A stretch of DNA of 58,261 nt, filler included, from Dugesia japonica (lineage: Eukaryota), in NCBI GenBank assembly GCA_001938525.1. It is 5 parts of 5 records of this genome, joined end to end, with 100 filler letters (N's around TTAATTAATTAA, not from the genome) between each part and the next. Parts side by side here need not be neighbours in the genome. Positions count along the whole stretch, not along the records: positions 11,998 to 28,131 come from MQRL01521228.1; 4 more parts are not named here. The stretch is one strand, 5' to 3'. A program made the position numbers and the translations under genes. The notes below the pieces were generated by a model. The model was not told where the DNA came from. It was given only the letters and a program-made list of their open reading frames with translations, and made no database searches. This document shows, in pieces, positions 1-50,631 of this stretch (its first letter is position 1; every line of letters begins with the position of its first letter).

Positions 1-180
1 TAATTTCATTTCTTTTTTATTTCAATTTAATTAATTTTCTTCTGTTACTTAATTAATTTCTTTTTTGCTTTTTCGTCGTTGACCAATATAAATTAGTAAT
101 TTTCTTAATTAATTATGATGGTGGTTGGTTATGTTATTCATATTTATCAACTTTCTTCATTTTTCGTTATCTTTTGACGA

Positions 181-263
181 TATTGGGGTAGCACCTTTTC
201 CTTATTTCGTGTTTGACGACCCCATGGGTTTGGTTCTCATTATCTGGGTGTTTCACCCCAACA
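181..263. repeat. 83-nt imperfect inverted repeat/hairpin ending ACCCCAACA; probable terminus of a relative of the 18819-22992 repeat family
   Basis: TATTGGGGTAGCACC (181) can pair with GGTGTTTCACCCCAACA (to 263); same CCCCAA(C/T)A end as 22992 and 31221. Confidence 0.5.
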
Positions 264-4640: not shown

Positions 4641-5103
4641 TGATCAATAAGCACATATAAAACCCTACAAAACACAATAATAACATATAAATCCTATAAT
4701 TGTAATAAAAACCTAGTAAAATCCTATAAGACCATATAAAATCTTATAATATAATTACCCTTTAAACCTAATAATAATAATAATAATATAAAAACTTTAA
4801 AGAAACCATATAGTTACCATATAATCACCTTAAAAAATCTAATAATTATCTTATAAAACCCTATAGAAAACCATATTGAAGTTAGTTTAATATGTTTCAT
4901 GAAATTTATGAAGATTTGTAGGAACTTTGTATATTTTCTTAATAAAATGATATGTAAATTGTACAGATTAGGCGAGTTAATAGGTTTTTGAATGTTCTGT
5001 ATACATTTAATATATAGATTTCTTTGAATTATTTGCGTTTATATGATGTAATTTTTGAATGTATGCTGTTTATTGTTTCATTGAATGCATTTGGTTCATT
5101 GCA

Positions 5104-5354
5104 TGAGTTTAATGAATATATTAGTTTTTCATAACTCAAATAACTTTTCAGGGACATATGGTAGATATTTACTAGATGTCCCTAAATTATGTCGAAAGGT
5201 TACCAGAGATCTGGTAATTTTTGCAAAACGTTACCAGAAGTCCTTAAATATTTTTAAAAAGTTACTTAATATTATGTATTTATTTCTAAATATTTACTAT
5301 ATATCCCTGAAAAGTTATTAGAGTTATGAAAAACTAATACATTCATTAAAATCA
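5104..5354. repeat. Foldback element with 68-nt inverted arms
   Basis: 5104-5171 is the reverse complement of 5287-5354 (6 mismatches by eye); internal TTACCAGA-GA-TCTGGTAA hairpin. Confidence 0.85.
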
Positions 5355-6409
5355 TTCATTAATGTAACTTTAACAAAGAAAATTCAACATTAATTCAACT
5401 ATAGTAATGAAAGTGCAACAGGAATTCAATCAAACAAAGAACATGAATTATATTTGTGCAACATGAATGCAATGAAAATGCACTATAAATCAAAGTTTTA
5501 ATAAGGTTCCTTTAGAATATTATGGGATTTTATAAGTTATCTTTATAGTTTTACATATTCCTAAAGAGTTTTATAAGATTTTATTGGTTTGAAAATGTTT
5601 TTAAAGTTCATAAGATTTTAATTAATAAATTTTAAATTAGTATTAAATTAATTTTTGTTGAAGTATATTTTATTAAAAATGGCTGATAATTAATTATTAT
5701 TACATGGAAATTATTATATTTATTTGTTTTACTGAGCTAAATTAATAAAATGGTAGATGCCCTTGAAAAATCTATTATAAATAAGTGAATATTTATTTGT
5801 TAATTTTTTTTGATGATTTGTTTTTAATTTTAGATATAAACAGAATGAATTCACAGAAAAATATTTCAAGAAACATGACGAGAAGCTTTAACATGGTAAG
5901 CTTAATTAATTAATTTATTGTTATTGATTTATATTTTAATATGAAAAAATAAATGATGTGTTTGAAGAATTTTATGGCAATATGACAAAGAAATTTATGA
6001 AAGAGGTTAGATTTATTAAGATTCAATTTAAGGTTAATGACTTTCGTTAATATAAGTGAATGCTTTTATTTTATTAATTTTAAGTTAATGATTTTATCTT
6101 ATTTTAATTATAATTTCATTTCAATTTTTATTATAATGATTTAAACTTTACATAATATTATCAAATTTTAACTTTATAATTTTAACTTAATTTAATGATT
6201 TTAATTAAACTTAATGATTTAACTTATTGTTATAACTTAATTATTATGAAAAGAAGCACATTCACAGGTTATTTATATATTATTTTAATATATTATTTTT
6301 AACATTGTCTGAGAAGCATCTAATCTTAATATTGTACGTAGCAATTATTATTGATATGAATTTAGCCCGGGGGAAATTTACTTAAAAATTAGAAAATTTA
6401 AACAAAATA

Positions 6410-6850
6410 AGTAAGATCTCCATCACAAGAAAACAACAATCTGCGCTTGGTTGGACTGCGAATATTTGTTCTACTGAGAAATGCTAGTGAAGAAGAATGA
6501 TGTAGATAAGAAACGCTATGTTGTCAAACTTTATCGAGTTAACGAAATAATTTAGCAGAAAAAGGTCGATCATCAGGACAATCATACTTCTTCAAGACAA
6601 TGCGAAACTACACATTGTAATCATCATAAATGAGATGTTATACTACATACTCAATACTTTCCAGACTTTGTAACAACGGATTATCACCTCTCCCCCATAA
6701 TGATGAGCGAAATGAGAGAAATGTCTTTCGTCAACGATAAAGACCTCAAAAACTGATTTATACAATTCTTCAACAAATATCCAAACTATTTTTAGGAGAG
6801 ACGGCAATAACAAGTTGGTTAATAGGTGGCAAAAGGTCGCAATAACATTT
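6410..6850 (+). mobile_element. Mariner transposase C-terminal remnant
   Basis: IILLQDNAKLH; DVILHTQYFPDFVTTDYHL (cf. HPPYSPDLAPSDYHL); GNNKLVNRWQKV; many stops. Confidence 0.8.
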
Positions 6851-6851
6851 A

Positions 6852-9182
6852 GGCCTAAAAATATCCACTCTTTATATTTCTTACCCTTACTCTCATCCTT
6901 GAATTTTTTGATGGCACTGTTTAAATCGTATGAGTAAAGAGGATGGTTTGTGCTATAATTGGACATGTCCAATATCTGATCTCTTACCATCAGTCCGGTT
7001 AGTTTTTCCAAACTAATATTTACAACCTCCAGGAAAAAATTATCCATATCGCCGGCTACAATATTTATTGTACAATTTTCTTCTATCCTGTACTTTTCCA
7101 ACTGATTTTATTGTAATTGATACATTCAGAGTTTTGATAGGTCCAGTACAGTCTGTCCGATGTAGCTCGGTTGATTCAAACAAACAATGTCCTTATTAAG
7201 AAGAACAGCTATTAGGTTCTGATCTATTTTTATAGTTTTCCTAAAACTAGCTTTTGACGTATATGTCATCAGCTTTTTGTTTGAATTGCACAAGTGCAAA
7301 TTTATTCTTTTTTTCAAATTCTCTACAGACTTACCGTACAGACTATTATTTAATAACTTGTACTAGTTTTTATCTAATTCTGTTGTACATTGTGATCTCA
7401 GTATTATATTTTTTCTAATGTATTCTTCAAAAATCAGGTTCCATTTTGGAAATGCACTTAATCCATATTTAAGAATATGATGAAGATCATACCCTTTTAA
7501 GTTGTGAAATACAACCGGTAGTTGTATATTCACTCTTCTGGTTAAATTACATTTCAAACAGGCGGCTCCTTTATTTTCTCATGTGAAATGATCGTGATCA
7601 CGAATGGGGTCTATTATCTCTTTTTTGCATAAATAACAATTTTTGCTCCTATTAAATTCCAATTGTTGAGCCGGTGTAATTTTCATTTTCTTTTTTCCAT
7701 TTTGTGCATAATATGGATACTCCACATTTTTACTTTTATTCTCGATTTCCTTCAAAACTTCATAGATACAATCATTTCCAACAAACTGGCTGTATTTGCT
7801 TACGTTGGTAAAATTATTTACCAACAAAAGTCTAACCAAAACTGGTAAATGTTTTTGGAAATGACGATCATCCGCCGGGAGAACTGATTCAAAATCAGCG
7901 TATATTACAAATGGGGGAGTGACGGTTTTAGAGTAATCATTAAACTATAAATCTTTCTCTGACGGCATTGTATATAGTGTTGTGCCGGATTGTATTCGTT
8001 CGCAAATTGCTTGATGCTTGTTGTAAGCATTGTTGTTGCTGAATCCGTTTAGGCACATTTCGCATCAGAGTGACTGTATTCGTTCCCCGTTCTTTTTGAT
8101 ATCCCGATTCATTAATCTATTGAGATTCATTACCACCGTGTAATGAAATCTGTTTCCTTTTTCTAATAATAATAAGTTTATTTTTTCTCTATCACATTTA
8201 GACCCATGTATAATGTCTAAATTTGGGGTGTTGCATTACTACATCTTCAATAATCAGTTCATCATCATTCCAGGATAACAAGTTGATAGATAAACCTGGA
8301 TTTTCTCTCTCAAATTTGGGTATGTCTGTCAATTTTATAGGTAAATCTTCTTCATCATATACTAGTTCCGACAAGTACTTACTATATTTGCTAGCTCTGC
8401 ATTTATTGTTTCCAATTGAATTTTGCTTAAGTATAGCCAATATACTATACAGGAAACATTTATTATCTGTGTTCTGAACATTTATAATAGCCATTTTCTT
8501 GTTCAGTTTCCTAGGAGTTGGAATATAACTGTGTCCACTCAATCTACTCATATTTGCTATTTTACTTATTTTGAAATTAACTTCAAGGATTCTGCTCAAA
8601 TTCCAACTTGATCCTATTTCATTTCGTATCCCAATTTTCTCATTTAGTGGATTTATTCAATGAAAAATGTATCACTTAATGGAACGGCACGATTAGACAT
8701 CCGACACGTTTTTAAATCTTCTTCTTTAACAAATTTGACATTGATGCCGAATTGTATTTTAACATCTCACAGCTCCTCTATCGTTTTATTTAGTTGATCA
8801 ATCAATGAATCCGGTAAAACTATTTCCGTTGTATTCCATGATGAGATATCAACTTTTAAAATCTAATGATAACGATACAAATCCATTTCAATTCCCACAT
8901 CGTTTATCGATCCACCAACAAAACACTCTTCCGGACCACTTATTTCATTATGTAAAATTTCTTTTAATAGTGTATTTTTTATTTAATGTGAACTGTGCTA
9001 TGTGGTCTAGATATGTAATCCATAGAAATTTATGTATGCACCTAAATCTGCAGACCGACAAGTCGGACATATGTAGTACTTTTTCTCACAAAACGTTTGC
9101 CCATAATATTTTCCCNNNNNNNNNNNNNNNNNNNNNNNNNNNNNNNAATTGCAACAATATTGCTTGTATGTTGCACATCGGT
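6852..9182 (-). pseudogene. Polinton/Maverick/adintovirus-type protein-primed family-B DNA polymerase, decayed and internally deleted
   Basis: GSSW…GHSYIPTP…IINVQNTDNKCF; PFVIYADFES; EndoVII-like CYLC…RDHDHFT…CLKCN; VVFHNLKGYD; KLLNNSLYGK; YIGQTVLDLSK; GDMDN (degenerate DTDS); HPLYS…KFKDE. Confidence 0.9.
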
Positions 9183-9699: not shown

Positions 9700-10418
9700 C
9701 TACTATCTACCTACTACCGATGATGCCATCTGACCTGGCTGAAGCCACTGTCTTTTGATAATAGGATATTTGAGATATATCCACTTTTTATCACCAGTTA
9801 TGATTCGTCTCCAGAACCTGTCATCTTTAGGATTATCCAACAATCTCTAATTTCTTCTCTCCTTTGTGCTTGTTGTTCAGAAAGTTCATGGCAAAGAAAT
9901 CTGGTTTTCTTATTTGAAAAACCAAGTTTGTGAAGGTGCCGAACAATAGTTGATTGAGACGTCTCAAGTTGAGTAGACAGTATGCGAGTGCTGGTGTCTG
10001 GCCTTTGTTGAATGCCTTGTAACAAAGCTTCATTTAACAGAACCGATGGCCTTCCAGAACGTGATTTGTCTTCCAGAATAATATCGCCTTCTTTAAATCT
10101 ACGAAACCATTATCTTACAGTGGCTTTTGAGACTATCCCAGGACCTTCAATTTCACATATTTTCATGGCTGTTGCTCTTACGCTTAGACTGTGTTTCCAA
10201 TAATGACGCAGGATACAGAGAATTATGATTTTTTCGTCCGCCATTTCGTCAGCCTCGATAATAAAGATTTTTTTGAAATTAAATCTATAAGAATTGACTT
10301 AGTATAAAAAAATAGATATAAATAAAATATAATAATACAATTGTTTTAAAATAATGATAATTTTTTTTAATTAAAATAGACAAAACATAGAGTGTCTGGA
10401 AAGTTTTGACTCAACCTA
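9700..10418 (-). mobile_element. Mariner 5' half (TIR + N-terminal transposase)
   Basis: ATG at 10244: …WFRRFKEGD…RSGRP…CHELS…RIITGDKKWI; TIR-like TAGGTTGAGTCAAAACTTTCC at 10418. Confidence 0.85.
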
Positions 10419-16290: not shown

Positions 16291-16685
16291 TAGGTGCTTA
16301 CCTCTACAATCATGTAAGAGGAAACGATTGTTGATGTTGGAATATTTAAATCATTATTAATAGATGTACCACGTAAAAATGGATTCAAATGTAAATTATT
16401 AGTAAATTAAAACTCTTAATTAAGCATGTTATTATGTTTTATATTTGAAACCTTTGATTAAATTGTTTACTATAAATGTTTTTTAAAATATATAAAATAT
16501 TTGTAATGTCAATTTTATATTATAACTGTAATATTTTAATATTTATATTTAAATCTTTATTTTAATCTGACAAATCCTTCTTTTCTATAATAAATTTCTT
16601 GGAAATTTTCAAAATTTATCGATTTAATATTCAAAATCAAAATTTAATAATTCAATAAATTGCCTCAAAATTACTGATAAATCAA

Positions 16686-17552
16686 ATGGCAAAAAGTAGT
16701 AGTCCTAAGAAAGATAACAAAAATAAAAGTCCTAAAAGTAAAAGTCCTAAAAATGACAGCAAAAACAAAAGCCCTAAAAAGGGAAGTGATAAAAGTTCAA
16801 AAAAAGATAAAAGTTCCAAAGTTGAGCTTACACAAATTGAAATGGATAAAGCTCCGATAACTCATGTTATTTTTGATTTAGACGGTGTCATTTTGGACAA
16901 TCGATATTTTATGGACATTTTTATCAAAAAATTAATGCATCCTTATGATATCCATTTACCACTTTCAGTGAAACTAAAAATAAAAGATAAAAAATTAGAA
17001 ACCATTGCTAAAATTATTATCAAAGAGTTTAGTATACCAATTTCTAATGAGGAATTCATGTATTGTTATAAAAAGTGGACGCCTGACATTTTAAAAAATG
17101 AGGAATTATTACCTGGAGTAAGTCGTTTAGTTATGTACTTTCAAAAGCATCATGTACCCATGGCAGTAATAACAGATTTTTCACAAGAAAACTATGAAAG
17201 TAAAAAGTGTCGCCATAAGCTAATTTTTGATAAATTTTGTCATGTAGTTTGTTATGGGTCTGATGAAGAAGCAAGAAAAAATAAGCCGGATCCATTTATT
17301 TATGAACTAGCAGCATCAAGATTTACTGATAATAAACCAAATGGTCCGTATAATATACTAGTGTTTGAAGATACCATAGATGGTGTAGATGCTGCACTCA
17401 CAGCTGGAATGAAAGTTGTATGGGTACCTGATGCAATAACTGATGCATCGTTAAAAGATTTTAATAAAAATTTAATGGTTATCAAAAATTTGGAATGTTT
17501 TCAACCAGAACTATGGCGTATGCCAGTTTTCAGTGATTTATACAGTGTTTAG
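16686..17552 (+). CDS. HAD-superfamily phosphatase, HDHD1/PUDP (pseudouridine-5'-phosphatase)/GS1-like, with Ser/Lys-rich N-terminal extension
   Basis: Intact 288-aa ORF; VIFDLDG (motif I), KPDP (III), VFED…G…AAxxAGM (IV), C-terminal FQPELWRMP; no introns. Confidence 0.9.
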   Translation: MAKSSSPKKDNKNKSPKSKSPKNDSKNKSPKKGSDKSSKKDKSSKVELTQIEMDKAPITHVIFDLDGVILDNRYFMDIFIKKLMHPYDIHLPLSVKLKIKDKKLETIAKIIIKEFSIPISNEEFMYCYKKWTPDILKNEELLPGVSRLVMYFQKHHVPMAVITDFSQENYESKKCRHKLIFDKFCHVVCYGSDEEARKNKPDPFIYELAASRFTDNKPNGPYNILVFEDTIDGVDAALTAGMKVVWVPDAITDASLKDFNKNLMVIKNLECFQPELWRMPVFSDLYSV

Positions 17553-17788: not shown

Positions 17789-18413
17789 TATCCCCCGATT
17801 TACACTGAAGATAAGTTTCTTAGAAAATTGTGTAAATCGAAATCGTAGATTTCTATACGTAAAACCGTGTAAATCGTATAAAAATTAAAGTGTGCATAAT
17901 TCAGCCATTTTTTTTACGTAAAATAAAACTAAATATATCTTAAAAACTTATAAATAACGGTGTTTTCATAAATTTACAAAATATCACTTGAGTTTTACAA
18001 TTACAATTATTGCGAGAATAATTGTTGAACTTAACCATTGATCGCATTTGAGATTTTATTGAAATAATAGCTTCAATCAAATTAAATTGTTGTTTTAAAA
18101 ATATTTGAATTTTTTACTAGTGTCTTGTTTGAATTTAATTTAAATTTGATTAAAATAATAAATTTATAATATAAAACAAACAATTTTGTAAAGGATTTCT
18201 AATATTAATTAAATCTATCAAAAAGTTATATTCTTGAAAAGGATAAAATCGAAAATTCGAATAACAACCACAAAAAGAAATAAAACAACATTTTGATCGC
18301 AGCTATTATTTAAATGAAATCTCAAATGCGATCGATGGTTAAGTACAACAAATATTCTCGTAATAATTGTAATTTTAAATCTCAAATTTTAAAACTTGTG
18401 TAAATCGGAGGAT
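17789..18413. mobile_element. Non-autonomous TIR element containing a MITE with ~95-nt inverted arms (17988-18081 / 18292-18385)
   Basis: Arms are near reverse complements; outer CCGATTTACAC…GTGTAAATCGG pair; another arm copy at ~37241-37302. Confidence 0.75.
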
Positions 18414-18818: not shown

Positions 18819-21800
18819 TGTTGGGTTTCTAGGATGTTTGATGTTAGAAAATTATTCTTCCTCTTTCATATTCTCACTTTCATGTTTTATAATCCATTTT
18901 GTAATCTAGAGGCATACCTAAAAACCTCAAGTGTTTATGACACCTTTATGTCACCCGTCTTTCCACGGGTCTAGCTCAACTTTATGGTATCGCGTCTTAC
19001 ATTCTCATTTCATGCACCACATCGCTAACCTGCTTAGTATTGACTTCTTTTAGGCAACAAACAAATTGTTATAATGACCATGTAGAGTCGTAACACATTA
19101 ATTTGAACACATGTTTCAAATATTTTATTTGCTATACACATAACCGTAGCATCATCGGCTTAACCGTCAGTCATCTAAATCCACGGGTTTGTCCTGAGCA
19201 TCCATCTTCTCTTCTGGCGATCGATAATTTAATTACAAGGTTAGGAGTGCTGTAAGCATTGTGGCCTCGCGATCGGCAGAGGTTTTGATTACATCTGCCA
19301 TCAGGCAAGTTGCAAAGCCAATTCTTTTTCTTAAAGTTGTTGGGATTTTTAGGCATTCTTTAATACCTGCCCCTTCAAACGGAGCACTTCATTCCTTAAT
19401 TCGCGTCACTCCTCTTTCCTGTGGTTCTGTGCATTTATCAACTTTTTTCTGTGCATCGTTTCTTCGTTACTTTTACTCACTAAAATGTATGAACAGATTA
19501 TAATAATTAAACTTCTGTTGGAGTGAAACACCCAGTCGGTAAAGAAAATCAAAACCACAAGAAAAGTAATTGAGAACAACCAGTATGGCTGAATTAATAA
19601 AAAGATAAAAAAATATACAAAGGAGATGGAGATGAAGATTTTGGGTCAACAAATCTGACCACATCAATTACAATAATTAAAAGAAATTATGAAATTAAAA
19701 ATAAAAGGCAAGAAAAGCATTACTGGAAAATAATTAATTATCAGGAAACATTAATTTATTTTAAATAAAAAATAAGTTAAAATTAGACAAAAAATTAGTT
19801 TTTTACGATTATCTTGGCCCAGAGGAATCAGAGAAACTCGTTGTAAGAAAATCTGAGAGGAAAGTGTATTAGAGTAATGGAATTTTGGCAGTTGAAAACC
19901 TTAACATTATCAGGAGGACCCTTACAGGAACGTGAAGATTGGACCAATAAAGGCCAAGAAAATAAAAATAAAACAAAGAAATGACAATCACATGTCACTC
20001 CAAAAATAGATGCCAATAAGAGTTCTACAACTCTGTAAAAAATTCAGAAAATTGGCACTAACGCCAATGAAAATTAAGAGATCTAAACTAAAAATAACCG
20101 ACCAACAAGAACATAGTCGGGTTGGATCGAGAAACCATATAAAAGGACACGAAAAATTAGCCTAAAAACAACAATTTTCATAGATTTTAAGTGTTGAAAA
20201 AACCATCCATTAATCAACTAGTAGAAAACTATTGGCTACTCGTTTAACTATTGAAGTGTCTACTATTAAATTCAAAGAGGAATTATTTGAGTATTAATTG
20301 GAAAAGATCAAGGTAAAAAAATCTAATAACCATATCTAATAATATAATGGAATTAATTGTTAAAAAAAAATAAAAACAGGAATCATTCACCAACTCTAAT
20401 TTGAATCCTTATATTGGCATTTCAGAACACCTGTTGCAGAATTTTGATTTTCACTAGTAAGTAATGTGTTCTAATCATGTTATTGTTATATATTTAATTA
20501 GTTGTTAATTAATAAATCTATCAATGTATGTTTATATTTGATAAATTTAATTCAAGTTTATGAATATAATTAATGTAGACGGTAAACAAATTCTAAATTG
20601 GTATTTTACCTACTCGTTAGCAGCCTCTCTATTACTCGCAATGCCTGTTCTTTCTGATACCCATTTATAAAAAAGAGAAATCGCTGATCTTAACTTCTAG
20701 TCACACTAAACACAACTACCGCCCAGATATGATGAATTCTTTTTAGTGAGCATTAAACTCCGCAAAAATCAATAACTCGGATTTACTATCTAACTAAGTA
20801 GTATGTGTGTATACAAATAACTAACCAATGAGTCACTCCAGGGAAGATGATGACATCAGTTGGTGTTAGCATAAAATTCACATTAGTCAGCACTTCTGTC
20901 ACTTGCCATACCATAATCCAGTTAATAATGGAACTAATCTAAATATCCGTGTCGTAAATTAAAATTCTATCTAAATGAAATTTTTCTACTAAATAACAGA
21001 TGTTGGATTATGCTGACTTCTACTAATAGATCCCCACTTTTGTGATCATGTAAATCATCGTTTTTTCTCATATCCAAATCAGACCATATCAATAACCAAC
21101 CATTGTGATCCTTACGAAATTTCTAGACACTAATGAACTTCATCTTGGATTACGTTCCAGTTATGTTGCTGAGATGCAAGTAATGTGTGAGGAATCCCAA
21201 ATTGGAATTATTTCAGTTAACCCTTTCTGTTTGGGTTAATGTTATATTAATAAAAGAAGTTTCAACCTCTAAATTTGATTTTTAATGCATGGGTAATTAT
21301 TAAATTTAACCATAATTATAATTAGGGCAGTTTTATTGTTTGATTTAATTCGAAAAGTACCATCCATTTAAGAACACTTAGTCCACTAATTTATTTATGT
21401 GTTTGAATGCCAAGCTTTTTATCAGTGTAACGGCCCCGATCGCACCCAAGAAGTACTGCATCGTGTTACCACCATAGATTCAGTGACCAATCAAATTAAT
21501 AGTGCATGGCAGCACGGTCCGGCATTGGTACCTGTGTCAGGCACCCACCTACCACGGAATACTAGGGTCACCATAGACATAGGTAACACCTTATGGGAGT
21601 TAAGGAACCTCGCTAGTGGAGGAGAATCAGAAAACAACGTGCTGAACCCTGATATATAAAGACAAAATTTTTTCTTTGGATTATTCATTGTTTAATATCT
21701 ATAATAAATGTGTTAAGGAATTTTAACTTCCTTTTCTCTTAACTGTTAAAGTTCACCTATTTGGATTCTGTAATTTGATTATTCGGTCTATTTAGCTGGT

Positions 21801-22992
21801 TCTCCTTAGTTGAAAAATTAAAATTAAATACCAATTTTTATAATAAATATTTTGTAGTGCATTCATCACTGAACCGAACTACAACTCCAACCAAAAAGAT
21901 GAAGGATACCAGTGAGGACCAAGAAATGACTTGGGACCTCTACCCCCTCGCTAAACATCGCTGGGAAGCGGAGATGGCCACCGCGAATAGTAAAGTTATT
22001 CGGTACAAGAAGAGATGTATCGCCTTTAAAAAGGAAGCCGAAGCCTTCCACATGCAAGAACGTGTATGGAAAAAACAAGTCGAGTCCTTCGCGGAAATTA
22101 TCCGGTCCCACCATGACCGAGAGAATAAATTAGTTAGTGACATCTTGCATCTCAAAGAGAAAATGCCTCTCGAACCTTTGATGATAAAGAAGAGCACTCA
22201 AACCCCACGGCCGTAGTTATCTTTGTTCATACCACCCTGTGAATAAACATTTCTTCCTGTTATTATGATTTTGTGTTCGCTCATCTAAAATATGAAAATA
22301 AAATTGTCGTCGTCCGGGTTTCGGACTAATCTAGTTCATTATTATGTTATCTTTAATATTTCACTCTTTTTAGTGCCACGTATTCAATTGCCCCGTAGCC
22401 TGAGACGGTGTCACTGACTAATCCAGAAACTTCTGCTCGAAAGACACCTTTAGCGCTAATCCGAGCGTGCTTTACTTCATCATTTAGCACAACGTAATAA
22501 ACTGATAAAGCGTTTGGACGTGATTGTGAAGAAACAAAATGACTTAGCTGAGAGCACGAAACAACTTCTACTGCACAAAATTGAATTCTCAAAGCACTAA
22601 ATTGCCAACCTGTCGCGCCAGTTGGGTAATGCTGCATACCTCAACTGGGATGATAATGAAGATTCACTGTTGTTCGACTTTATCCCAGAAGAGCCGACTA
22701 AGTGGTTAGACCCGGGTGCTCTAGATGGCATGTGATTTAAAAACAATATAATGTATTATTAATCTGGTGCTTAATTTTTTTTTGTGGTATTTTAAAATAA
22801 TAAGGAAATTATTGCGAACCCGAACCATAGGTGTATGAGTGTGAACCTCGCATGAAGTTGAAGGTCAACCGCTCTACACTGAATATCTAATCTTGGGACA
22901 TTAGATTAAATTCTTGAAAGGGATCCCCTGAGGGCCATGTTTTCCCCGGCCAGTTTTTCCGTTTTATCATCAACTCAGGTGAAACCCCAATA
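18819..22992 (+). mobile_element. Unclassified ~4.2-kb multi-ORF repeat element (copy A)
   Basis: Collinear similarity blocks with 28480-31221 and 48780-49170; TGTTGGGTTTC…GAAACCCCAATA ends; flanks CTAT/CTAC. The 5' boundary is tentative. Confidence 0.55.
21858..22216 (+). CDS. Terminal exon of an element-encoded coiled-coil protein
   Basis: TTTGTAG acceptor, open to TAG; homologous over its length to 48840-49169. Confidence 0.6.
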
Positions 22993-23283
22993 CTACATTA
23001 GAATGTTTTGAAAATTAATTTCTCAGAAAAATAGAATAACAAATAAACTAAATTTCTTAAAATGCACTAGAGAATTTTGAAATTTAAATTCTTTGAAAAA
23101 TTATTTCTATTATTGCGTGACAAAACAATTAAATATGGTTACGCAATATAGTACTGCCTCTGCAGTTTATTCATAATTCGAATTATACAGACAACTGAAA
23201 TTGAAACTTAGTGACATACATATCACAATATCTTAATCGAACAAAAAACACTCTTTATAGATTATTAACAGCGATTTATCTTT

Positions 23284-23960
23284 CTAATCAACGTTTAGAT
23301 TTATCAACCGGGCGACATTCAAATACATGAATTTTTGCATTAATTTCAACTCCTCGGCTTCTTCATCCATCTTGATGGCATTGGAAATAGATAGTACATC
23401 GGTTGCTTTCAAAGTACTGCCGGACAACTCCTCTTTTAGTTTTCTTATTTTTCCTCGTAAGATTCTTGTACCCGATCTTACTGGCACTCGAGTGCTCATA
23501 GATTAGTATTCTTAACTGCCAATTGTGGCTGGGCCGATTCTAAATCTGCTTCTAGGTTCTGAATCTCCGCAGTGCTATATCCCCTTTTCTTGGCTATCAT
23601 GACTTGTACCTCTGCTTATTCGATGTAGTATCGACCCTGCTCGTCAATATACGGTCAGGTGTAGTGAAGCCTCCTTCTTCTTGTTCCCTTGAAGCTATTC
23701 ATCTAGTAAATGCAAAATAAGGTAAATATCATGAATAATATTACAATGAAAATTTAAAAATAATAAAATTAATATACGAAACCCCCAATCATAGCTAATT
23801 TTTAACGATTTTTTGGCTTGTGACCCTAGCACGGCTTCGTCCTCGCTTCTGTAACACGATCAGAGAAAATGACCACTTATAGCAGCCATTTTTTCTTGTC
23901 TCTGCTAGTGCAAAGCTCTAGCAAGAATTTCTCAATGATTTCCTTTTTCCGTAACACAAT
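23284..23960 (-). pseudogene. Decayed, probably spliced coiled-coil ORF of unknown origin
   Basis: GC-richer island; EIQNLEADLESAQPQLAVK… with stops; acceptor-like TTTACTAG near 23703. Confidence 0.3.
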
Positions 23961-26147: not shown

Positions 26148-26692
26148 ATGGACACTTTAAAATTAAATCAAACGCTTAATGGACACACAGATCGTGTTTG
26201 GAATTTATCTTGGAACTATAATGGAACTTTATTGGCTTCATGTAGCAGTGATCGAACTGTTAGAATTTGGTCTTTCTGTATGTCTATTATAATTCTAGTA
26301 AAATAAAGTTTAAAATCATAACTTTAGCGACATCAACAGGAAACTGGACTTGTTTATGTGTACTTGATAACAGACACCAGAAAACTATAAGGTGTGTTAC
26401 ATGGTCTCCTTGTGGGAAATATTTGGTGAGTTCGGGTTTCGATGGGGAAGTTTTCATTGAAGAAATGGTCAGTAAAGACCCATTAGAATTTGAATCAATA
26501 GAATTCCCCACAGAACACAAGTATGAAGTAAAATCAGTTAGTTATTCGCCAAGTGGAGCGTATTTAGCAACTTGCAGTCGTGACAAAACCGTTCAAATTT
26601 TCGACATCGAAGATCTCAGTAGTCCATATAATATTGAGGTATTTTCACATTCTGAAGATGTAAAAGCAGTAACATGGCATCCTCTTGTTGAT
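26148..26692 (+). CDS. CIAO1: Cytosolic Fe-S assembly WD40 protein CIAO1/Cia1, exons 1-2 (26148-26277, 26328-26692); remainder not found
   Basis: GHTDRVWNLSW…LASCSSDRTVRIW; HQKTIRCVTWSPCGKYL; EVKSVSYSPSGAYLATCSRDK; HSEDVKAVTWHP; 50-nt in-frame intron; GTAAGT donor at 26693. Confidence 0.93.
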
Positions 26693-26894
26693 GTAAGTCA
26701 AATTTGTTTATTTTATTATTATATTAATATTTCACTTTATTTTTATTTGGTAAAATTTTAACATTAACAGTCAAATAAATTATAAATAATAATTATTATC
26801 TGTTGATTATAGTTAATTTAATTTTATTAATAAAGTACATTTATTATAATTATTATATTGTTATCGTATTGATTGGACTTAAATCGAACCACCT

Positions 26895-28231: not shown

Positions 28232-31221
28232 CGAACAGGAAATCATTGAACTAAGAGCACTCTGCCAGGAAAAAGAAAACGACATCGCCGAAAAACCACA
28301 ACATTTAATCGAACAATTTTCCGAAATTAATGAACTCCATCAATCACATACAGCCGGTCGACCTATTTCTCACCCGTTAGTTTTACGAATTCTACCCCAC
28401 CCAAGAAGTTTAATCATCCTCAATTCATACAAATCAACATTAAGCCCCGCTGCTCCCAAATGGCAACCAACACTCTCAGGTCTACCAAGGCAATCCACAC
28501 CATTAATAATTCAGGACCCCATTGCAGCTCCGGTTAAATCAAAAATTTCAGAATGGATAAATAAAATAATCAATCAAGGAAATACTCAGGAAAAAAAACA
28601 ATTAATTATTGGAAAATATCAATTAATTATAAACAAAAAATAAAATGTAAATTAGTTACAAAACAGTTTTATAGCAATATCTCTCCTCCAATTAATGCTG
28701 GAACTAACGGATAAGAAAAACTGTAAAGGATTTCTATCTGGCTATCAGAGTTTTGACACTAGAAAATGGTGCCACCATCCAGAGGGTCTCCACGAAGATT
28801 TTAAGATTGATCGAATAGCAGTCTAGAATTAAAAAATAAGACAAAGAACAAAAACTCACCTGATGATCCAAAAATATCTGCCAACAGAATCACAGAAAAT
28901 CGGCATAACTTTAGAAAAGTGGCACCACCGCCAATGAAAATGGGTTATTTCATTTTAAAAATAACCGACCAACAAGAAAATAGTCGGGTTGCATTAGAAA
29001 ACATAAAAAGCACCCGAATTTTAGTAGAAAACAACAATTCAGCAACAACATTTTTACTACGTTTCGATCGTAACCATACATCGTATTACTTTTACATTAG
29101 AGAAAAATTTTTCACGGAAAAAATATTTAATCTATTACGGTATTTTATACGGTAAGATCACCAATTCTATTCGACTAATTCATTGGTGTCACATTTGAAT
29201 TTTTCAGAGAAGAAATATTCTATCAATTAAAGGAAGAATTTGAACAATTAAAATCGACCACTAATTCCAGGTGTAACTAAGTTTTATTTTGAAGATTAAT
29301 TCGTTGCAGAAATCCTTGTTTTAATAGTAAGTGTCGTTGCTGTATTATAATATTGTAATAAAAATTTATGACATTAATAATAAAAAATGTTTAAAATTTG
29401 ATTCATGTGTTTAAATTGAAATTATAAAAAATCATCAATTTAATCTATAAAGGATAAAGTAGTCAAAGTACATCATTAAAGATTTTTATAATTTGATCTA
29501 TTTAAATTAACCTGACAATTTTATCTAGACAGTAAAATTGAGCGGACATGTATTTTAATTGATGCAGTCAGAAATTTTTTTTTATGACAATTCGTTGATA
29601 ATGCATGAGAAATACCACCCCGGTATATTTAAAATCAATAGTTTAACGATTGCCTCACTCGTAACTAAGTTTGTATAAACCGCTTGTCAACACCAGAAGA
29701 GTGAGTCACCCAAGTGTGAATATTGTAACATCTGAATCCGCATCCAGGAATAATGGAAATCATGTGTGACAACACGATCATGGTGTTGAGTGGAATTATT
29801 CTCTCTCTCGTGATGAAATTTGTAAAAGTGATTTTCGTAATGTGATGGAAACGGTTGACAACGATACAGATCCACTGACAATTAGCTAACATTGTTATCA
29901 CCCAAGTTAGCGGTAAGAACTTCATTTTGTGTAACGTGTATTTGAATTAAGTTTTTTCTGTTTGTGATTAGTTATCATTATTATCAATAAAATTTGGCTT
30001 TACAGTGAATAATTACTATTTTACTATTGTTATTAGTGTAATTATCATTGGTGGAATGATTAATCTGATTACTAAAGGCAGAATTAAACTTGTATCATTA
30101 AAATTTATAAATATTCCGGGAGTAGTTATAATTTTCCAGTAATTCTTAGGGTGATGTTTTGGACATATACTTTTTTTCACAAACTATAATATGGAATGAA
30201 TGGTATTTTGCCGATAAATCTGAGGTCTAATTGGCGTATGGTAGGGTGTCCGTCTTATGTTCATAATCTTAAGGCAATTATGTTATTTATCATTATCATT
30301 AATATTATATTAATAGCCATGTTCCGAATGGAAGTTTTCACCATCCTGACGAAGGATACGAATATCTATAACCACTATTAGGGGTTGCCAGCATATTGAT
30401 TTTTGGCTGTTTCATTGTGATTAAACATGGAAATTATTGTTACTATAGACCTATCTACTACTAATGACATCGTGATTCATCGCTAGTAACATTAACTAAA
30501 GGAAGTACTGCGCGGCTGAAGAAGTTTAGAATACCTTATAGTTAGTAGTGGTAGTGTCATTAGGGGTATTATCATTCTAGAGATTATCACTTTTACTTAT
30601 ATTATACATTCGTGTTATCAATGAACCTTCGTGACTTACGAGGACTCTATGGTTACCCCTTTCCACCAGTATTATATTTAGAAGTCGGGTAAGGTAGAAT
30701 AAATATTTTCCGTATACTCATATATGAACCACGCAAATCTTTTTGAATCTAATTTGATAATATGTTAATCAAGGTATAGATTTCCTCATGGGTGATATTC
30801 TAACAAGAACTCTCCTATGATTGCTATGGTCACCACAACAGTATATTGTGGACCTCTCACGTCAGCTAAGAAACCCCACGTGGGTCCAGTGGGACGATAA
30901 TGACGATGTAGCAGCATTTAATTTTGTAATGACTGATCCGCTCAAGTAGCTAGACCCGGGCGCATTGGATCTTATGTAACTTTTATGTAAAATAAAGCTT
31001 TCATTATTTGACTCAGTATAGTATAAATTCGTGATAATAGGGAAATTAGTGAACCCAAACTCAAAGGCGTATGGGCGTGCACCTCATTAATTGAGAGGTC
31101 AACCACCATATGCTGAATACCTAACCTAGGAGCATTGGATTAAATTCTTGAAAGGGTTCCCTGATGGCTGTCTTTTCCCCAGCCACGTTTTTCTTCGTCT
31201 AACTCAGGTGGAACCCCAACA
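28232..31221 (+). mobile_element. Diverged copy B of the unclassified multi-ORF repeat family (5' end probably cut by contig edge)
   Basis: Shares in order AAAATAACCGACCAACAAGAA…TAGTCGGGTTG, GTTGCAGAA…TAGTAAGT, the WDDN…LDPGALD peptide and a ~190-nt terminal block ending GGAACCCCAACA. Confidence 0.65.
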
Positions 31222-34896: not shown

Positions 34897-35455
34897 TCAT
34901 AAAACATAAAACATAACGATTTGTAGTGCTTCAATTAATCCTTCACCAGAAACCGCAGAACATGGTCGAACACAATATCTACGAGAACCATTGAATAGAC
35001 TTAATTCCAATCCATTTATGATTTCATTTAAAGACATAGGATTTGGTAAATCTTGCTTATTAGCAAGCACAACGACTGGAACCTTAACAAATAACATTTA
35101 TTTGAATATATTGTAAAACAAATAAAAATTTACTTCTTTCATTTCTTCTTGTTCAAGAATAAATATTAATGCATCTTTTGATTCTTGCAATCTTTTTCTA
35201 TCATTTATGTCTACCACATATAAGACACAATGAGAATGCACACAATGATTTATCCAAGATGATCGATAAATTTGACGGCCTCCAATATCTGTGATTTCGA
35301 ATTTGATATTCTTTCTTATTTTTACACTTTCTACATTGCATGTCACAGTTGGGATTGTATTAAATTGTCCATTGATTTTCAATTTGTAAATAATACTTGT
35401 TTTGCCAGCACCATCGAGACCCACCATCACAATTTTAAAGGTTCCATATTTTCTA
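34897..35455 (-). CDS. ARF/ARL-family small GTPase unit 2 (exons 35455-35134, 35082-34897)
   Basis: GLDGAGKT, TIPT, DIGGR, LANKQD, CSA motifs; 51-nt in-frame intron 35133-35083. Confidence 0.9.
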
Positions 35456-35496: not shown

Positions 35497-36110
35497 TTAA
35501 TCATACTCATGAAATTCAAAAAACTTCACCGATTCGAATTGTTCTAAGATATGTACGAACATTACCATCGCTTGAATTAAACCATCGCCAGACACCGCAG
35601 AACATGCTCGGACATTCCATAAACGAGAACCATCCAATCGCCATAATTCCAATCCATTTATGATTTCATTTAAAGACATGGGATTTGGTAAATCTTGCTT
35701 ATTAGCAAGCACAACAACTGGAACCTTAACAAATAACATTTATATGAATATATTGTTAAACAAATACAAATTTACTTCTTTCATTTCTTCTTGTTCAAGA
35801 ATTGAAAATAATTCCTTTTGTGATTCGTCCAATTTTTTTCGATCGTTAATATCGACCAAATAAATGAGAGAATGACATCCTTCACAAGCACTTATCCATG
35901 AGGGTCGACTTGTTAATTGTTCATTAACCTTGTGTATTTGGAGTTTCGTATTTATTTGCACTTCTTTAACTTCGAAGGCACTCAAAATGATTTTAACGCA
36001 TCCATTAGATAATATTGTGGATTTCCCAACACCATTTAGCCCTATTATTATTATTTTCTTATTTTGAAAGTAAATTACGCAAGAAAACAATGGTAATAGG
36101 TGTTTCAATC
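35497..36110 (-). CDS. Divergent ARF/ARL-family unit 1 (exons ?-35776, 35724-~35507); 5' end unresolved
   Basis: GLNGVGKST, LANKQD, CSA; no G2 Thr or DxxG; 51-nt intron 35775-35725 at the same position as in unit 2. Confidence 0.8.
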
Positions 36111-37054: not shown

Positions 37055-37302
37055 CTAAAATAGTGTAAAAATGAAAAATAGTGATATTATTATTAATATT
37101 GAAAAAAATAACAAAACAATCGATAATGCATTCTGGATATACAATTAATAAAATTGACAAGAAAAACAGAAAATCCTTAGAAATACAATAAGAACATATC
37201 AAACAAATAAGGAATAAAAAAAAATAGTATACAACATTTTATAATTACAATTATTGTGAGAATAATTGTTGGACTTAACCATTGATCGGATTTGAGATTT
37301 CA

Positions 37303-43200: not shown

Positions 43201-44989
43201 GAATAAATCTTGATTATTATAATTAGCAATACTCTTATACTCATTGTCCCATATTTCGGAATGAATGATATATTGAGTTTATTTTCTAATTGATTGTATG
43301 GTTCAAAAAATTAAGTGTTTTCGCTACGAAACCCTATTGGTATGAGTAATTTATTTTTGTATTATATCTTAAATATAAATTATTAGTTAAATTCAAAACC
43401 TCACAACTCTCCATAAAATTGTATTTATTATTACAATTGTTTTTGATTAAAATAAAATAATGATGAAGAATAATTCATAGTATTCAAACAAATAATCTGA
43501 GAAATTTTTCAATAAAATATTTTAAAAATATCGATTTTTCATTTTATAAAATATTTAACTTTACATAAAAATTTCATAAAATATTTTACAAATATTAATT
43601 TTTAATTTTATGAAATATTATACTTTACATAACAATTTCATAAAATAAATTAAAATATTGATTTTTAATTTAATGAAATATTTTATTTTACATATGTTTT
43701 AAAAATAAATTTTAAAATTATATATATATAAAATTATAAAAGAATTTCTCAGGTATTTAAATCTATTGTTGGACTGAAACAGCCTTCCGTAAAATATGAA
43801 AAGCAGAGAAAGAAATAAATTAAATGGTAATAAGAAAATAAATAAGAAAATAATTAAAATAAAAGAAATATTAATCTATGAAATGAAAAGGAAATGATTA
43901 TTAAATAATAATAACTGAAGTTAAAAGGAGTAAGAAAATATCGAACAAAATCTAGGGTAAAACAATAAAAAGAAAATAAAAATGTAATAAGTTGTCGAGA
44001 AAATGAAGAATTTATTAAATATTAAAAGATACAATAATTGAAAATAATTAATAATTAGATGGCTAATATAAAATATGCTCAGAAAATAAATCAAATTGTT
44101 TAAGTGATCGAAAAGAAGAATGTCAATAAAACTAGGAATATATATTTAGAATTTAAATAAACGCGTTGAAAGTATTCATATATTAAAATAAAATTATATT
44201 GATGAGAGAAAAGGAAAAATTAAAGCAAATAATTATATTAAAATATTTTGATATTTTAAAGTGAAATTATGGGAAAATAAAAGCAAAATAAATCATGATA
44301 ATCATTATAAAAAATGAAATAATAGATTATTAGTCAGGTTTAAGTACAAGAATGGTATTATTATTATAATTTTATATAAAATATAAAAATGTGAAATTTT
44401 TATTATTATCGATAAATGTAATTAAAATTATTATTATTCGATAAATATTATTGTTTATAATGAACAAGAAGGAATTATAANNNNNNNNNNNNNNNNNNNN
44501 NNNNNNNNNNTATGTAAGAATTCAGGATTGATATGTTCATATTTGTGTAACTTTCTCTATTTCCAAAACTCTTGCAAGTTTCAGAAAAAAACATAAAACA
44601 TCTGTAAGCACCTAATCTGCTACAGAATTAACAAAAAAACGAAAATCATCACGTTCATATTTGGACATCTCTGTAGACGTTACAGGTGGGCATCGAGTGA
44701 TTTTTTGAATTAACAGAAATCTGAAGTGAACGCCAACTGTATCTGTCAAAATTTGACGATACCATGAGATATAAAAGGAAATCAAATTCATTAAAAATGT
44801 ACTTTTAAGAATTTCAATGAGTGGTCGATGATCTGCTAATCAAGAGTAGTGTAGATAAACGAAACGAGATTTACCGGTTAACATTCCTTCAATTAATAAT
44901 ATTTAATGTTGTTTGAGTTGATTTAAGATTTTTCAATATCTATATATTAATAACTTAATAATATTATTACTTAGAACATAGATGACCTA

Positions 44990-45990
44990 TCAATTCATGA
45001 GAGCAAAGGCTATCGCCAATTTAATCGAAGCAGGATTCAGTTTCAACACCTGTTCCAACAACAACATATCAGACGTTTTGGATGGGAGGTACCGATACCG
45101 AGCTCTGGTGGATTATTTAGGATAAGCTAAAACGGAAGAACGAGTATATCCGCACATTGGAAGAAAAGATAGCCAGGTAAAAGCGTCAACACGCAGAGAA
45201 ATTGGATCAACTCGATAACTTGCCGAAAATCCTGGATAATTGGGAACAACTATATGATCAATAGCTGCAACTCTCGTAACAACACAAGAGGAACGTGAAA
45301 AGGAATTAGTACGGTTGCTTATCCGGACTACGGACGTCTCCAAGCATCAACAGCATTTAATTAAGACGATGAGAGCCACTCAACTCGAAGCCGAGGAATG
45401 CACGAAATTATCAAGAAAGTTATCAACAAAGATCGTAACGGATACTTCTTCCTTTAGACGATGATATTATTAATATCGAAGCAACAATGTGACGATGTAG
45501 ATTTAACAATATAATATTTTCCTTAGCAGTTTTTTCTTTCTATAAATAAGATACTATTATTAAATTTTAAGTTTTGAAATCAATTTTGAATTCCGTATCA
45601 TTGTGATAATTAAATAAGATATTCAGATATTTACCAATGGATTAACTGTCTAATTTTGATTCAGTGTGTAGTGCCAGGAAAATGACAGCCGATACATCCC
45701 TGATGGATTTGCGTAAAAAATAGAACTTCTTATACAGGAAACTACAAAATGAAATAGCTGAACTCCAGCGCAAAAACAACATGATCCAAGAAAAGAACAC
45801 TTAGCTAAAGGAACGAGATCTTATTCTCTCACAAACGTGCTGCATGATGGCCGATATTAATAAGGCATACAGCGATCGAGAAAGCATACTGATTTCAACG
45901 GTACAAAGATTAACACAGGTATCGAAACCCGAAAAGGAAATGGTAAAAGAGAAAATCAAAGAGATCATCGACTTGGACGAATGATAGATT
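44990..45990 (+). pseudogene. Two tandem decayed coiled-coil ORFs related to the 21858/48840 family
   Basis: ATLVTTQEEREKELVRLL and ADINKAYSDRESILISTV vs AEIIRSHHDRENKLVSDI. Confidence 0.45.
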
Positions 45991-46399
45991 GTAACTGAAA
46001 AAAAGGTTTTCTTGCAAAATTGTTTTAATTGCAAAGAATGATCAATTAATAAAGACTGATGACATCAAGAGCCAATTAAAATCGAAATAGAAAACCACAA
46101 TACAGGATACAACATAGTCCCGCTGAATCTGGGAATAGGGGATCATGATGCAAGGAGTAGGAATCACAAATTTCTGGGTTACTAGATATCATCCCCCAGA
46201 CATCAATGTAATTCGGAAAGAGGAAGAACTAATCAGGAGAGAAGAAATCAAATTAACATCAAAAGCCTAGTAACCCAACAATATGAATGATTCTTTTTTT
46301 CCAAAATATTCTTTTTCTACTTATGTCTTTCGACCAAACAAAATGCAAAATTTCTAAACCACTTTGTTGACAATGAAAAGATTATTCATTGCGCTACTG

Positions 46400-48780: not shown

Positions 48781-48839
48781 ACAACAATTTCTAGATTATA
48801 ACCGAGACTTTATTTTGTACAAATAGTTATAACTTATCA

Positions 48840-49169
48840 CTATCGTGAGGTCTGTGTTGACTTATCAGTCATCAACGGTTCGAGGGACATGCATTTCCGC
48901 AGCTCCATCACATCAACCACCAATATATTTTTACGGTCGTGGAGGGACCGTATGATTCCAAGTGCGCTCCAGCGCATGTAGAGCCTGTGCTTCCTTACGA
49001 AACATGATGCAATTATTCTTATACCCCTTTACCTTGCTCTCCGTGGCAGCGGTGTCAGCCTCCCACAATCGTTTAGAGAGTCTGTAGACATCCCATATCA
49101 TGTCTATGTCTTCACTATTCTCTCTAATCTTTTTTGTGGGAGCAGACGGTCGATTGAGTGATGAGTGCA
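48840..49169 (-). pseudogene. Frameshifted homologue of the coiled-coil exon 21858-22216
   Basis: Same AG|TG CAY TCA acceptor/phase; HSSLNR…PTKK…WD…WEA…SKV, then IIRSLHDRKNILVVD…LEPLMTDKSTQT after a short deletion. Confidence 0.8.
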
Positions 49170-49825
49170 CTATAAGAAAATGATAACAATAACCACTGAA
49201 TTTCATACAAAAATATTTAAACAGTACTTAACGAAGCTAAACGCTATTTTATTGATTAATAAAAGCACAACAAATTAATGAATCAATAAAAGCTGTAAGA
49301 CAAAGTTACAAAGAAGAAATTTTATTCTTAACCAACTAAACGACACCTAATTAATTCTCGGAGTCTCTGAGTATCTATAATATGTTGTCGATAAACTCAT
49401 CTAACACAGAAAAAGGTAACAAGTGTGGTGTTGAAATCGGGACAACGGAGGGGCATTCCCGCCAATAGCTGGTTTTGCGAAGTTCACTACTATTATTCAC
49501 GTGGGTAGTCGTAGCAGAGTGATAGGTTTCTCGAGCACGATTGGGGCCTGACGCTCAGTGGCGTCCCAATGCGTTTCATCATTTGCCTCCTCAGTTGACA
49601 AGTTGGAGCGGTCCGCTAAAACTCCAGCATCTCTATTGTACAGATTTTTATACCACTTAAAAGTCATTCGCCCGGTCCGACGATCTAGTTGCATCTCACA
49701 CTTAAATTCCATTAAATTAAATAAGGATTTACGTGTGCAAACAGAAGAAATGTAACAACGAATTTATAATTAAAATTTAAAACAATTATAGCACTGATGT
49801 GTTCTTAACAATGAGGAATTTCATA

Positions 49826-49925: not shown

Positions 49926-50631
49926 ATAAGCAGATGCATTAATTCTAAGTCTCTGTGGAAAGAAATACGGAGGCATAACATGACCTTCGTTGCTGACAAG
50001 CCCCAATCCCATTAAATTTTTGATCTTGAGTGAAAAGCTTTTCATCGGAAAAGAACCATAGAATGTTTGGATGATCAGGATGCTTGATTTTGTTTAAAAG
50101 GCACTTAGAGCGGATTAAACGATTTTCTTTGCATTTGGCCGATACAAAATGTCTTCTTTTCATGACGTAGGACTTGCATTTTAAAGCATTGTGTACCGTC
50201 CGTCTCACTGTTGAATCAGAAACCGATAGTCGCTCTGCAATTTTCCTCATTGATGTTCCCGGACTTTCATGAATAACATCCTGGACCTTTTGAATAAAAT
50301 TAACATTTCTGACATTGTCTGAACGTGATGAATGTGTTTTTCTTTTCGATATAGATGAAACATTTCGATCAGACGCCAAACATTNNNNNNNNNNNNNNNN
50401 NNNNNNNNNNNNNNNNNNNNNNNNNNNNNNNNNNNNNNNNNNNNNNNNNNNNNNNNNNNNNNNNNNNNNNNNNNNNNNNNNNNNNNNNNNNNNNNNNTCT
50501 TCCATTTCTAAAATAAAAAATATTTATTGAATGTTGTACCAACAAATATTGCAAATCCATTTTAGCGCCAATAAAATAATTATNATGATATATTTAAACA
50601 AATTTTGTCCTCAAATAGCTGACGCACCCTG
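49926..50631 (-). mobile_element. Tc1/mariner superfamily (maT/DD37D-like) 5' part
   Basis: SMRKIAERLSVSDSTVRR HTH, FFSDEKLFT; TA-CAGGGTG TIR start at 50631. Confidence 0.85.

What the first reader, a model, noticed from the sequence alone, without database searches (positions are those of the whole stretch)
18819..22992. Unclassified multi-kb repeat family with TG…CA-like ends, spliced cargo ORFs and no visible transposase/RT
Seen: copy A and copy B (28232-31221, a separate contig) share several collinear blocks and stop at the same CCCCAA(C/T)A end; part recurs at 48780-49170. Copy A starts TGTTGGGTTTC, nearly complementary to its end, with CTAT/CTAC flanks. No PBS, PPT, gag, pol or DDE motif was recognised, but there are small exons and coiled-coil ORFs. 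Inference: a giant gene-carrying solo LTR, a Ginger-like TG…CA non-autonomous DNA element, or part of an endogenous DNA virus; possibly undescribed.
Basis: partly seen in the sequence, partly recalled or inferred. Interest (0 to 1): 0.7.

Follow-up and report, generated by a model that had tools for sequence, protein, structure and literature searches.

The report
Gene-carrying solo LTR of Burro retrotransposon
This repeat is the left-behind terminal repeat (solo LTR) of a roughly 31-kb envelope-carrying retrotransposon that is likely a member of the known planarian Burro group, and the repeat itself carries three small conserved protein-coding segments that are likely the element's own accessory genes.

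Summary
The repeat is real but mis-bounded. Copy A is a 3,477-bp solo LTR at 19516-22992 (TGTTGGAGTG…CCCCAATA; flanks CTTC/CTAC; 6 of 6 complete relatives have exact 4-bp duplications). Elsewhere in the genome A's 3' end is followed by an 18-nt tRNA primer site and its 5' end is preceded by a polypurine tract. One contig holds the 22-kb interior: gag-CCHC, SUMO-like, Bcl-2-like, fusion glycoprotein, protease, RNase H, integrase, BIR and coiled-coil ORFs (RT, dUTPase-like and RING were scored on a second contig). This is the published Burro/GYPSM1 layout. Copy B is an interior fragment plus its LTR. Ginger and DNA-virus readings fail. Not found in print: the LTR carries three ORFs under purifying selection (pN/pS 0.31-0.50; control frames 0.96-1.63), each opening at a splice-acceptor-like AG in the same phase. 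Splicing and expression are untested. The scan noted similar LTR micro-genes before on other DNA of this genome (e1-9268182).

The parts
19516..22992 (+). Copy A: solo LTR of family 'R' (3,477 bp; lacks about 1.34 kb at 21405-21408 relative to L119/L123, so the full LTR of this subfamily is about 4.7 kb)
19512..19515 (.). Left target-site duplication CTTC
   Evidence: 4-bp length from relatives
22993..22996 (.). Right target-site duplication CTAC (3 of 4 match)
21405..21659 (+). LTR ORFx, 3' remnant (5' part lost in the deletion)
21858..22216 (+). LTR ORFy, helical/coiled-coil-like, opens after TTTTGTAG; open in A
22374..22735 (+). LTR ORFz, opens after TTTTTAG; 4 internal stops in A
18819..19515 (-). 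3' part of an older sister-family ('L') LTR, ending ...CCTAGAAACCCAACA at 18819; interrupted by copy A
23718..23942 (-). Continuation of the interrupted L-family LTR beyond copy A (its 5' start was not found on the contig)
28232..28577 (+). Copy B, element interior: piece of the last coiled-coil accessory ORF that precedes the PPT
   Evidence: 81% to L149, 75% to L148/L140
28578..31221 (+). Copy B, R-family LTR lacking the PPT and about its first 200 bp; ends CCCCAACA
48844..49789 (-). Copy C: decayed R-family LTR fragment with ORFx and ORFy remnants
43767..46280 (+). Shortened L-family solo LTR (flanks CTAT/ATAT)
1..263 (-). 5' start of another LTR with the same start motif (91% to the 3' LTR start in L180)

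Best explanation
Copy A (19516-22992) is a solo LTR of a giant Ty3/gypsy-type retrotransposon, likely of the planarian Burro group, inserted into a sister-family LTR and likely left behind when its two LTRs recombined and removed the 22-kb interior. Shown: LTR ends, a tRNA-type primer site, a polypurine tract, 4-bp target duplications, the interior gene order, and purifying selection on three ORFs inside the LTR. Inferred: the full element (about 31 kb) was copied by tRNA-Pro-primed reverse transcription and inserted by its own integrase; LTR-LTR recombination made the solo copy; a later deletion removed 1.34 kb. Also inferred: the three LTR ORFs are alternative last exons joined by splicing to one shared upstream coding exon, giving small helical accessory proteins, as complex retroviruses do. 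Copy A itself is decayed.
For: PBS: CCCAACA + spacer + 18-nt TGGRGGCWCAGYCGGGAT, 340 exact matches, 0 in controls; 11 of the 30 fetched junction loci have A's R-type end, 8 the L-type end; L068, 85% identical to A over 22601-22990, carries it. PPT: 10 of the first 100 of 2,884 5' ends share an interior flank ending GGACGGAATTT...GAGAG + 5 nt. TSD: 6 of 6 complete R-type solos have exact 4-bp duplications (2 lie in ATT repeats and say little; in the other 4 a 5-bp reading fails; chance per pair about 0.008); 2 of 3 L-type solos exact. Interior: contig C609115 runs from PBS to PPT over about 22.2 kb with Retrotrans_gag (E 0.002), zf-CCHC, Rad60-SLD (E 0.0025), Bcl-2 (E 0.003), Monjiviricetes_fusion, protease, RNase H, integrase, BIR; C604510 adds RVT_1 (E 6e-35) and dUTPase (E 2e-4) in the same order, and L140/L142 add RING. 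L170 links an R-type end (78% to A) to PBS, gag region and the Bcl-2-like segment on one contig; L140 links BIR-RING, PPT and a full 4.4-kb LTR 60-65% identical to A. Same layout in the Burro section of PMC6431247. Nesting: L022/L023 match 18819-19511, stop at A, resume at 23718-23931. Coding: pN/pS 0.50, 0.33, 0.31 vs 0.96-1.63 in control frames; nucleotide-only alignments give third-position excess in the ORFs (0.24, 0.44, 0.43 vs 0.14-0.24 at positions 1-2) and none between them.
Against: No Burro/GYPSM1 reference sequence was compared, so membership rests on domain order and size. The gag, SUMO-like, Bcl-2 and dUTPase hits are below Pfam cut-offs; MATH and ankyrin domains were not seen. 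The interior-linked LTRs are other subfamilies (60-78% to A), not A's own. A's TSD has one mismatch (3 of 4 arises by chance about 8% of the time). No shared upstream exon was found, and RNA reads showed no splice joint and almost no cover of the ORFs (146, 15 and 7 reads, all partial, nearly all under 95% alike). Stops occur in 8 of 15, 17 of 27 and 13 of 29 ORF copies, and pairs are not independent.
Confidence: 0.92

Rival explanations
1. Solo LTR of a different giant env-carrying gypsy family of flatworms (GAG-ENV-POL errantivirus) that resembles Burro in layout but is a separate lineage.
For: No direct sequence comparison with Burro; MATH and ankyrin not detected; GAG-ENV-POL order arose in several host clades (PMC13524379 passages).
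Against: The rare run gag-CCHC, PF11976, Bcl-2, env, PR, dUTPase-like, RT, RH, IN plus BIR/RING/coiled-coil and >30 kb matches the Burro description item by item.
Confidence: 0.06
2. Non-autonomous Ginger-like TG...CA DNA transposon of 4.17 kb (18819-22992) with spliced cargo.
For: TG...CA ends, short inverted ends and 4-bp duplications fit Ginger (recalled); most ends face unrelated host DNA.
Against: Ends join PBS, PPT and gag-env-pol; 18819 is the 3' end of another LTR; none of 20 fetched loci with that end carried an R-type end in the orientation this unit would need.
Confidence: 0.01
3. Segmental duplication or part of an endogenous DNA virus (Polinton/adintovirus-like).
For: Polinton-like ORFs (judged by eye) lie in some flanks and in the window.
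Against: Sharp ends with unrelated flanks in thousands of places; homology stops at CCCCAACA; retroelement interior is linked.
Confidence: 0.01

Closest known systems
Burro1-4 / GYPSM1 giant gypsy-like LTR retrotransposons of planarians (PMC6431247 section 7, read; citing Grohme et al. 2018 and Jurka 2007, not seen)
   Same: Interior up to 25 kb and total over 30 kb (here about 22 kb and 31 kb); gag with CCHC knuckles, SUMO-like PF11976, Bcl-2-like, env between gag and protease, dUTPase-like before RT, RT-RH-IN, BIR, RING, coiled-coil ORF; thousands of copies; the review reports decaying fragments in a further Dugesia species.
   Different: MATH and ankyrin not detected here. The section read says nothing on PBS type, TSD length or genes inside the LTR. 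No sequence comparison was made.
Platyhelminthes GAG-ENV-POL errantiviruses with HSV/gB-type Env (PMC13524379, passages and supplementary table rows read)
   Same: Env before pol; the Smed_errantivirus_1 Env row printed shows the same cysteine motifs by eye.
   Different: The six Schmidtea rows list PBS 'none' and no LTR coordinates; here LTRs and a PBS 6-8 nt from the LTR end are defined.
Ogre/Tat giant plant LTR elements (from the same review) and LTR-borne accessory ORFs of complex retroviruses such as MMTV sag and HIV nef (recalled)
   Same: Multi-kb LTRs; protein-coding sequence inside the LTR.
   Different: Here a row of three short ORFs with same-phase acceptors in the last 1.7 kb of the LTR; no sequence likeness found.

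Membership tests
LTR retrotransposon (solo LTR) | TG...CA ends with short target-site duplication | tested here: met
   4-bp exact in 6 of 6 complete R-type relatives; 3 of 4 in copy A
LTR retrotransposon (solo LTR) | tRNA primer-binding site after the 3' end of the 5' LTR | tested here: met
   340 matches; spacer 7 nt in 39 of 45, 6 in 5, 8 in 1; complement of a tRNA-like 3' end in L164. The Pro assignment is recalled; ARAGORN called 0 genes in 3 loci
LTR retrotransposon (solo LTR) | Polypurine tract before the 3' LTR | tested here: met
   10 of first 100 listed 5' ends; sequences
Ty3/gypsy | pol order PR-RT-RH-IN | tested here: met
   C604510
Burro/GYPSM1 | Interior up to 25 kb, total over 30 kb | tested here: met
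   PBS to PPT about 22.2 kb on C609115; LTRs 4.4-4.7 kb; total is a sum, not one contig
Burro/GYPSM1 | Env-like fusion glycoprotein between gag and protease | tested here: met
   PF24664 upstream of protease, E down to 4e-80
Burro/GYPSM1 | Retrotrans_gag with CCHC knuckles; SUMO-like PF11976; Bcl-2-like; dUTPase-like | tested here: met
   zf-CCHC above cut-off; the other four weak (E 2e-4 to 8e-3, below cut-off) but in the published order
Burro/GYPSM1 | BIR, RING and Smc-like coiled-coil motifs | tested here: met
   BIR E 2e-14, RING E 6e-14; the coiled-coil ORF has no Smc Pfam hit
Burro/GYPSM1 | MATH and ankyrin motifs | tested here: inconclusive
   Not hit in the ORFs scanned; only part of the broken ORFs was scanned; the review says MATH placement varies
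Burro/GYPSM1 | Sequence identity or RT clade with Burro1-4 | not testable with these tools
   No Repbase/Dfam or Burro library held; Grohme et al. 2018 not held
Ginger-like DNA transposon | Unit bounded by TIRs with no PBS/PPT/RT linkage | tested here: not met
Polinton / endogenous DNA virus | Long TIRs, 6-bp TSD, linked PolB/capsid (recalled) | tested here: not met
   4-bp TSD; linked interior is retroelement

The most novel reading that the evidence does not exclude
Burro-type elements run a retrovirus-like accessory programme from inside their LTRs: a cassette of small helical proteins made as alternative last exons, conserved across subfamilies 55-65% alike, so that thousands of solo LTRs scatter promoter-plus-gene cassettes through the planarian genome.
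Probability: 0.45. Interest if true: 0.6.

Novelty: new member of a known kind. Interest (0 to 1): 0.32.

Why it matters
The element class is known, so the finding mostly dissolves into a nested pair of Burro-type LTRs. What adds to the record: defined LTR ends, a 4-bp TSD, a likely tRNA-Pro primer site set 7 nt from the LTR, at least four LTR families sharing it, and protein-coding ORFs under selection inside the LTR. If those ORFs are expressed, the multi-kb LTR of these elements is partly gene content rather than spacer, and they are candidate regulators of the element or of its host that can be tested by RNAi in a tractable animal.

Tried and rejected
4.17-kb unit from 18819: rejected. First PBS test with TGG within 0-6 nt of the end gave 53 unrelated hits because the spacer is 7 nt. 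One search used a mistyped pattern; its 0 hits mean nothing, so no genome-wide count of R-type PBS junctions exists; by eye 2 of the first 100 R ends and 4 of the first 100 L ends show a PBS. Rows left out of the TSD count: L122 and L097 (poor motif matches), L093 (another end type; flanks did not match), L135 (a 5' LTR followed by a PBS). Homology searches for the LTR proteins gave nothing usable: Pfam, no hit above cut-off for 9 ORFs; ESM Atlas top scores 0.89-0.90 to unnamed clusters, recognition low; 0 hits for ORFy; one 4,202-aa protein with short matches for an ORFz profile, not examined. Search for a shared upstream exon by codon periodicity: inconclusive, few copies cover the middle. 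RNA: no RNA holder listed; three raw RNA runs gave only partial reads of relatives and no joints; a second lay gave no result. ARAGORN did not call the tRNA. Literature: searches found no description of genes inside Burro LTRs; I saw listings, passages of PMC8532177, PMC13238120, PMC11410931, PMC13524379 (plus supplementary rows) and section 7 of PMC6431247. Grohme et al. 2018, its supplements and Repbase entries could not be seen and may already describe the LTR.

Full report
Setting. The window is a pack of five stretches, about 22-31% GC. The stretch with copy A is G000:C521228, in an 854-Mb assembly of 648,594 contigs. The host is likely a planarian; this rests on composition and on the element found, not on a label.

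The observation. The shared blocks between A and B, the common 3' end and the third match are all present. But no locus carried both in the needed order: none of 20 loci with the 18819-type end showed the 22992-type end downstream, though four ran on for 3.9-6.6 kb.

The ends are LTR ends. Listing flanks showed a recurring sequence after CCCAACA. A direct search found 340 exact cases of CCCAACA, a short spacer and an 18-nt TGGRGGCWCAGYCGGGAT, with 0 for the reversed control. It is the complement of a tRNA-like 3' end in the same genome (L164); the Pro assignment is from recall, and ARAGORN called no gene there. So 18819 is the 3' end of another LTR on the minus strand. The true start of A is TGTTGGAGTGAAACACC at 19516. 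That motif has 2,884 matches, and 10 of the first 100 listed share an interior flank ending in a purine run 5 nt from the LTR. Relatives align from 19516, or a few AT-rich bases earlier, with unrelated flanks.

Solo LTR and nesting. Six of six complete R-type copies among the loci have exact 4-bp duplications; two lie in ATT runs, and in the other four a 5-bp reading fails. Two of three complete L-type copies do too. Copy A has CTTC/CTAC. L-family copies L022 and L023 match 18819-19511, stop at A and resume at 23718-23931, so A sits inside an older L-family LTR. A lacks about 1.34 kb at 21405-21408 against L119 and L123 (89% and 84-86% identical), putting the full LTR near 4.7 kb. Copy B begins with 345 bp of the element's last interior ORF (81% to L149) and jumps into its LTR about 200 bp in.

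The interior. Walking in from the polypurine tract reached C604510: fusion glycoprotein PF24664, two proteases, dUTPase-like, RT, RNase H, integrase, a membrane-protein-like ORF, the BIR-RING region, a coiled-coil ORF, PPT and LTR start (BIR and RING were scored on the matching regions of L140 and L142). C609115 spans PBS to PPT, about 22.2 kb, and adds gag, CCHC knuckles, SUMO-like PF11976 and Bcl-2-like before env. L170 ties an R-type end to PBS and gag on one contig; L140 ties BIR-RING and PPT to a full 4.4-kb LTR 60-65% identical to A. The env-proximal segment has 1,750 first-look candidates. Section 7 of PMC6431247 describes this order and size for Burro/GYPSM1 and reports decaying fragments in another Dugesia species. 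Against: several domain hits are below cut-off, MATH and ankyrin were not seen, and no Burro sequence could be compared.

Genes in the LTR. Three ORFs fill the last 1.7 kb. Across 15, 27 and 29 copies pN/pS is 0.50, 0.33 and 0.31, against 0.96-1.63 when the same DNA is read in shifted or reverse frames. Protein-guided alignment could bias this, so I repeated it on nucleotide alignments: third positions differ 1.5 to 3 times as often as second positions in the ORFs, and equally often between them. Pairs are not independent, and about half of the copies carry stops, as expected for dead insertions. ORFy and ORFz open at a conserved pyrimidine-rich AG followed by TG and then the reading frame, and end in their own stop; ORFx has a candidate AG in the same phase in L119. 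ORFz has no start codon. A shared upstream coding exon with alternative last exons is the simplest reading, but I did not find that exon and RNA reads gave no joints and little cover. No family or clear homologue was found.

Mechanism. Shown: LTR anatomy, linkage to a gag-env-pol interior, nesting, selection on the ORFs. Inferred from established gypsy biology: tRNA-primed reverse transcription, integrase insertion with 4-bp duplication, solo formation by LTR-LTR recombination. Most ends face host DNA (2 of 100 and 4 of 100 listed 3' ends show a PBS, 10 of 100 5' ends a PPT), so solos likely dominate. Inferred and untested: the ORFs are spliced accessory genes.

Novelty and verdict. The element is a new member, in this genome, of a described group. 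My searches found no account of genes inside Burro LTRs, but the primary Burro paper and Repbase were not available. The errantivirus survey lists no LTR or PBS for its six Schmidtea elements. An earlier scan note on other DNA of this genome reached a similar reading (e1-9268182); it is not independent support. Interest 0.32; novel case probability 0.45, interest 0.6 if true.

Noticed in passing
L051-L080 (loci): At least four LTR end types share the same primer site: 11 R, 8 L, 6 ...GGGTAAAACCCCAACA, 3 ...CATGACCCCAACA, 2 unclassed of 30.
   Followed up: partly
L165 (G000:C378538, around 153-174, minus): About 60 nt of tRNA-like sequence ending in CCA abuts an LTR end; it looks like a primer tRNA copied beyond the 18-nt site, and its anticodon arm differs from the Pro-like L164.
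   Followed up: no
L148:4030-6102 (-), L185:3-1226 (-): A second membrane-protein-like ORF follows the integrase; no Pfam hit.
   Followed up: no
L159:1-1893 (-), L185:5230-8538 (-): Two aspartic-protease domains in tandem after env.
   Followed up: no
window 18819-19515, 43767-46280; L022, L023, L094: L-family LTRs also carry short helical ORFs that resemble ORFy by eye; selection not tested.
   Followed up: partly
L086, L087, L006, L097, L125, L132: LTRs often sit next to or inside each other, some tail to tail across short ATT runs; an AT-rich target preference is likely.
   Followed up: no
window 16659-17552 (+) and 26264-26761 (+): Host genes flank the nest: a HAD-family hydrolase and a WD40 exon.
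   Followed up: partly
window 6643-8656 (-); L033:1-342; L038:5643-6233: Decayed ORFs that look like Polinton polymerase and minor capsid pieces by eye; no Pfam hit for the two window pieces scanned.
   Followed up: partly
window 51797-52672 (-); 9798-10109; 49945-50523: An ordinary gypsy RT/RNase H remnant (RVT_1) and two mariner-like remnants (by eye).
   Followed up: partly
window 17988-18385; 5100-5358: Fold-back repeats of MITE type; one end recurs at 37237-37302.
   Followed up: no
window 34928-35266 / 35570-35908; 54083-56491 (-): Tandem ARF-like small GTPase exons, and a long open frame ending in a SpoU-like methyltransferase motif (both by eye).
   Followed up: no
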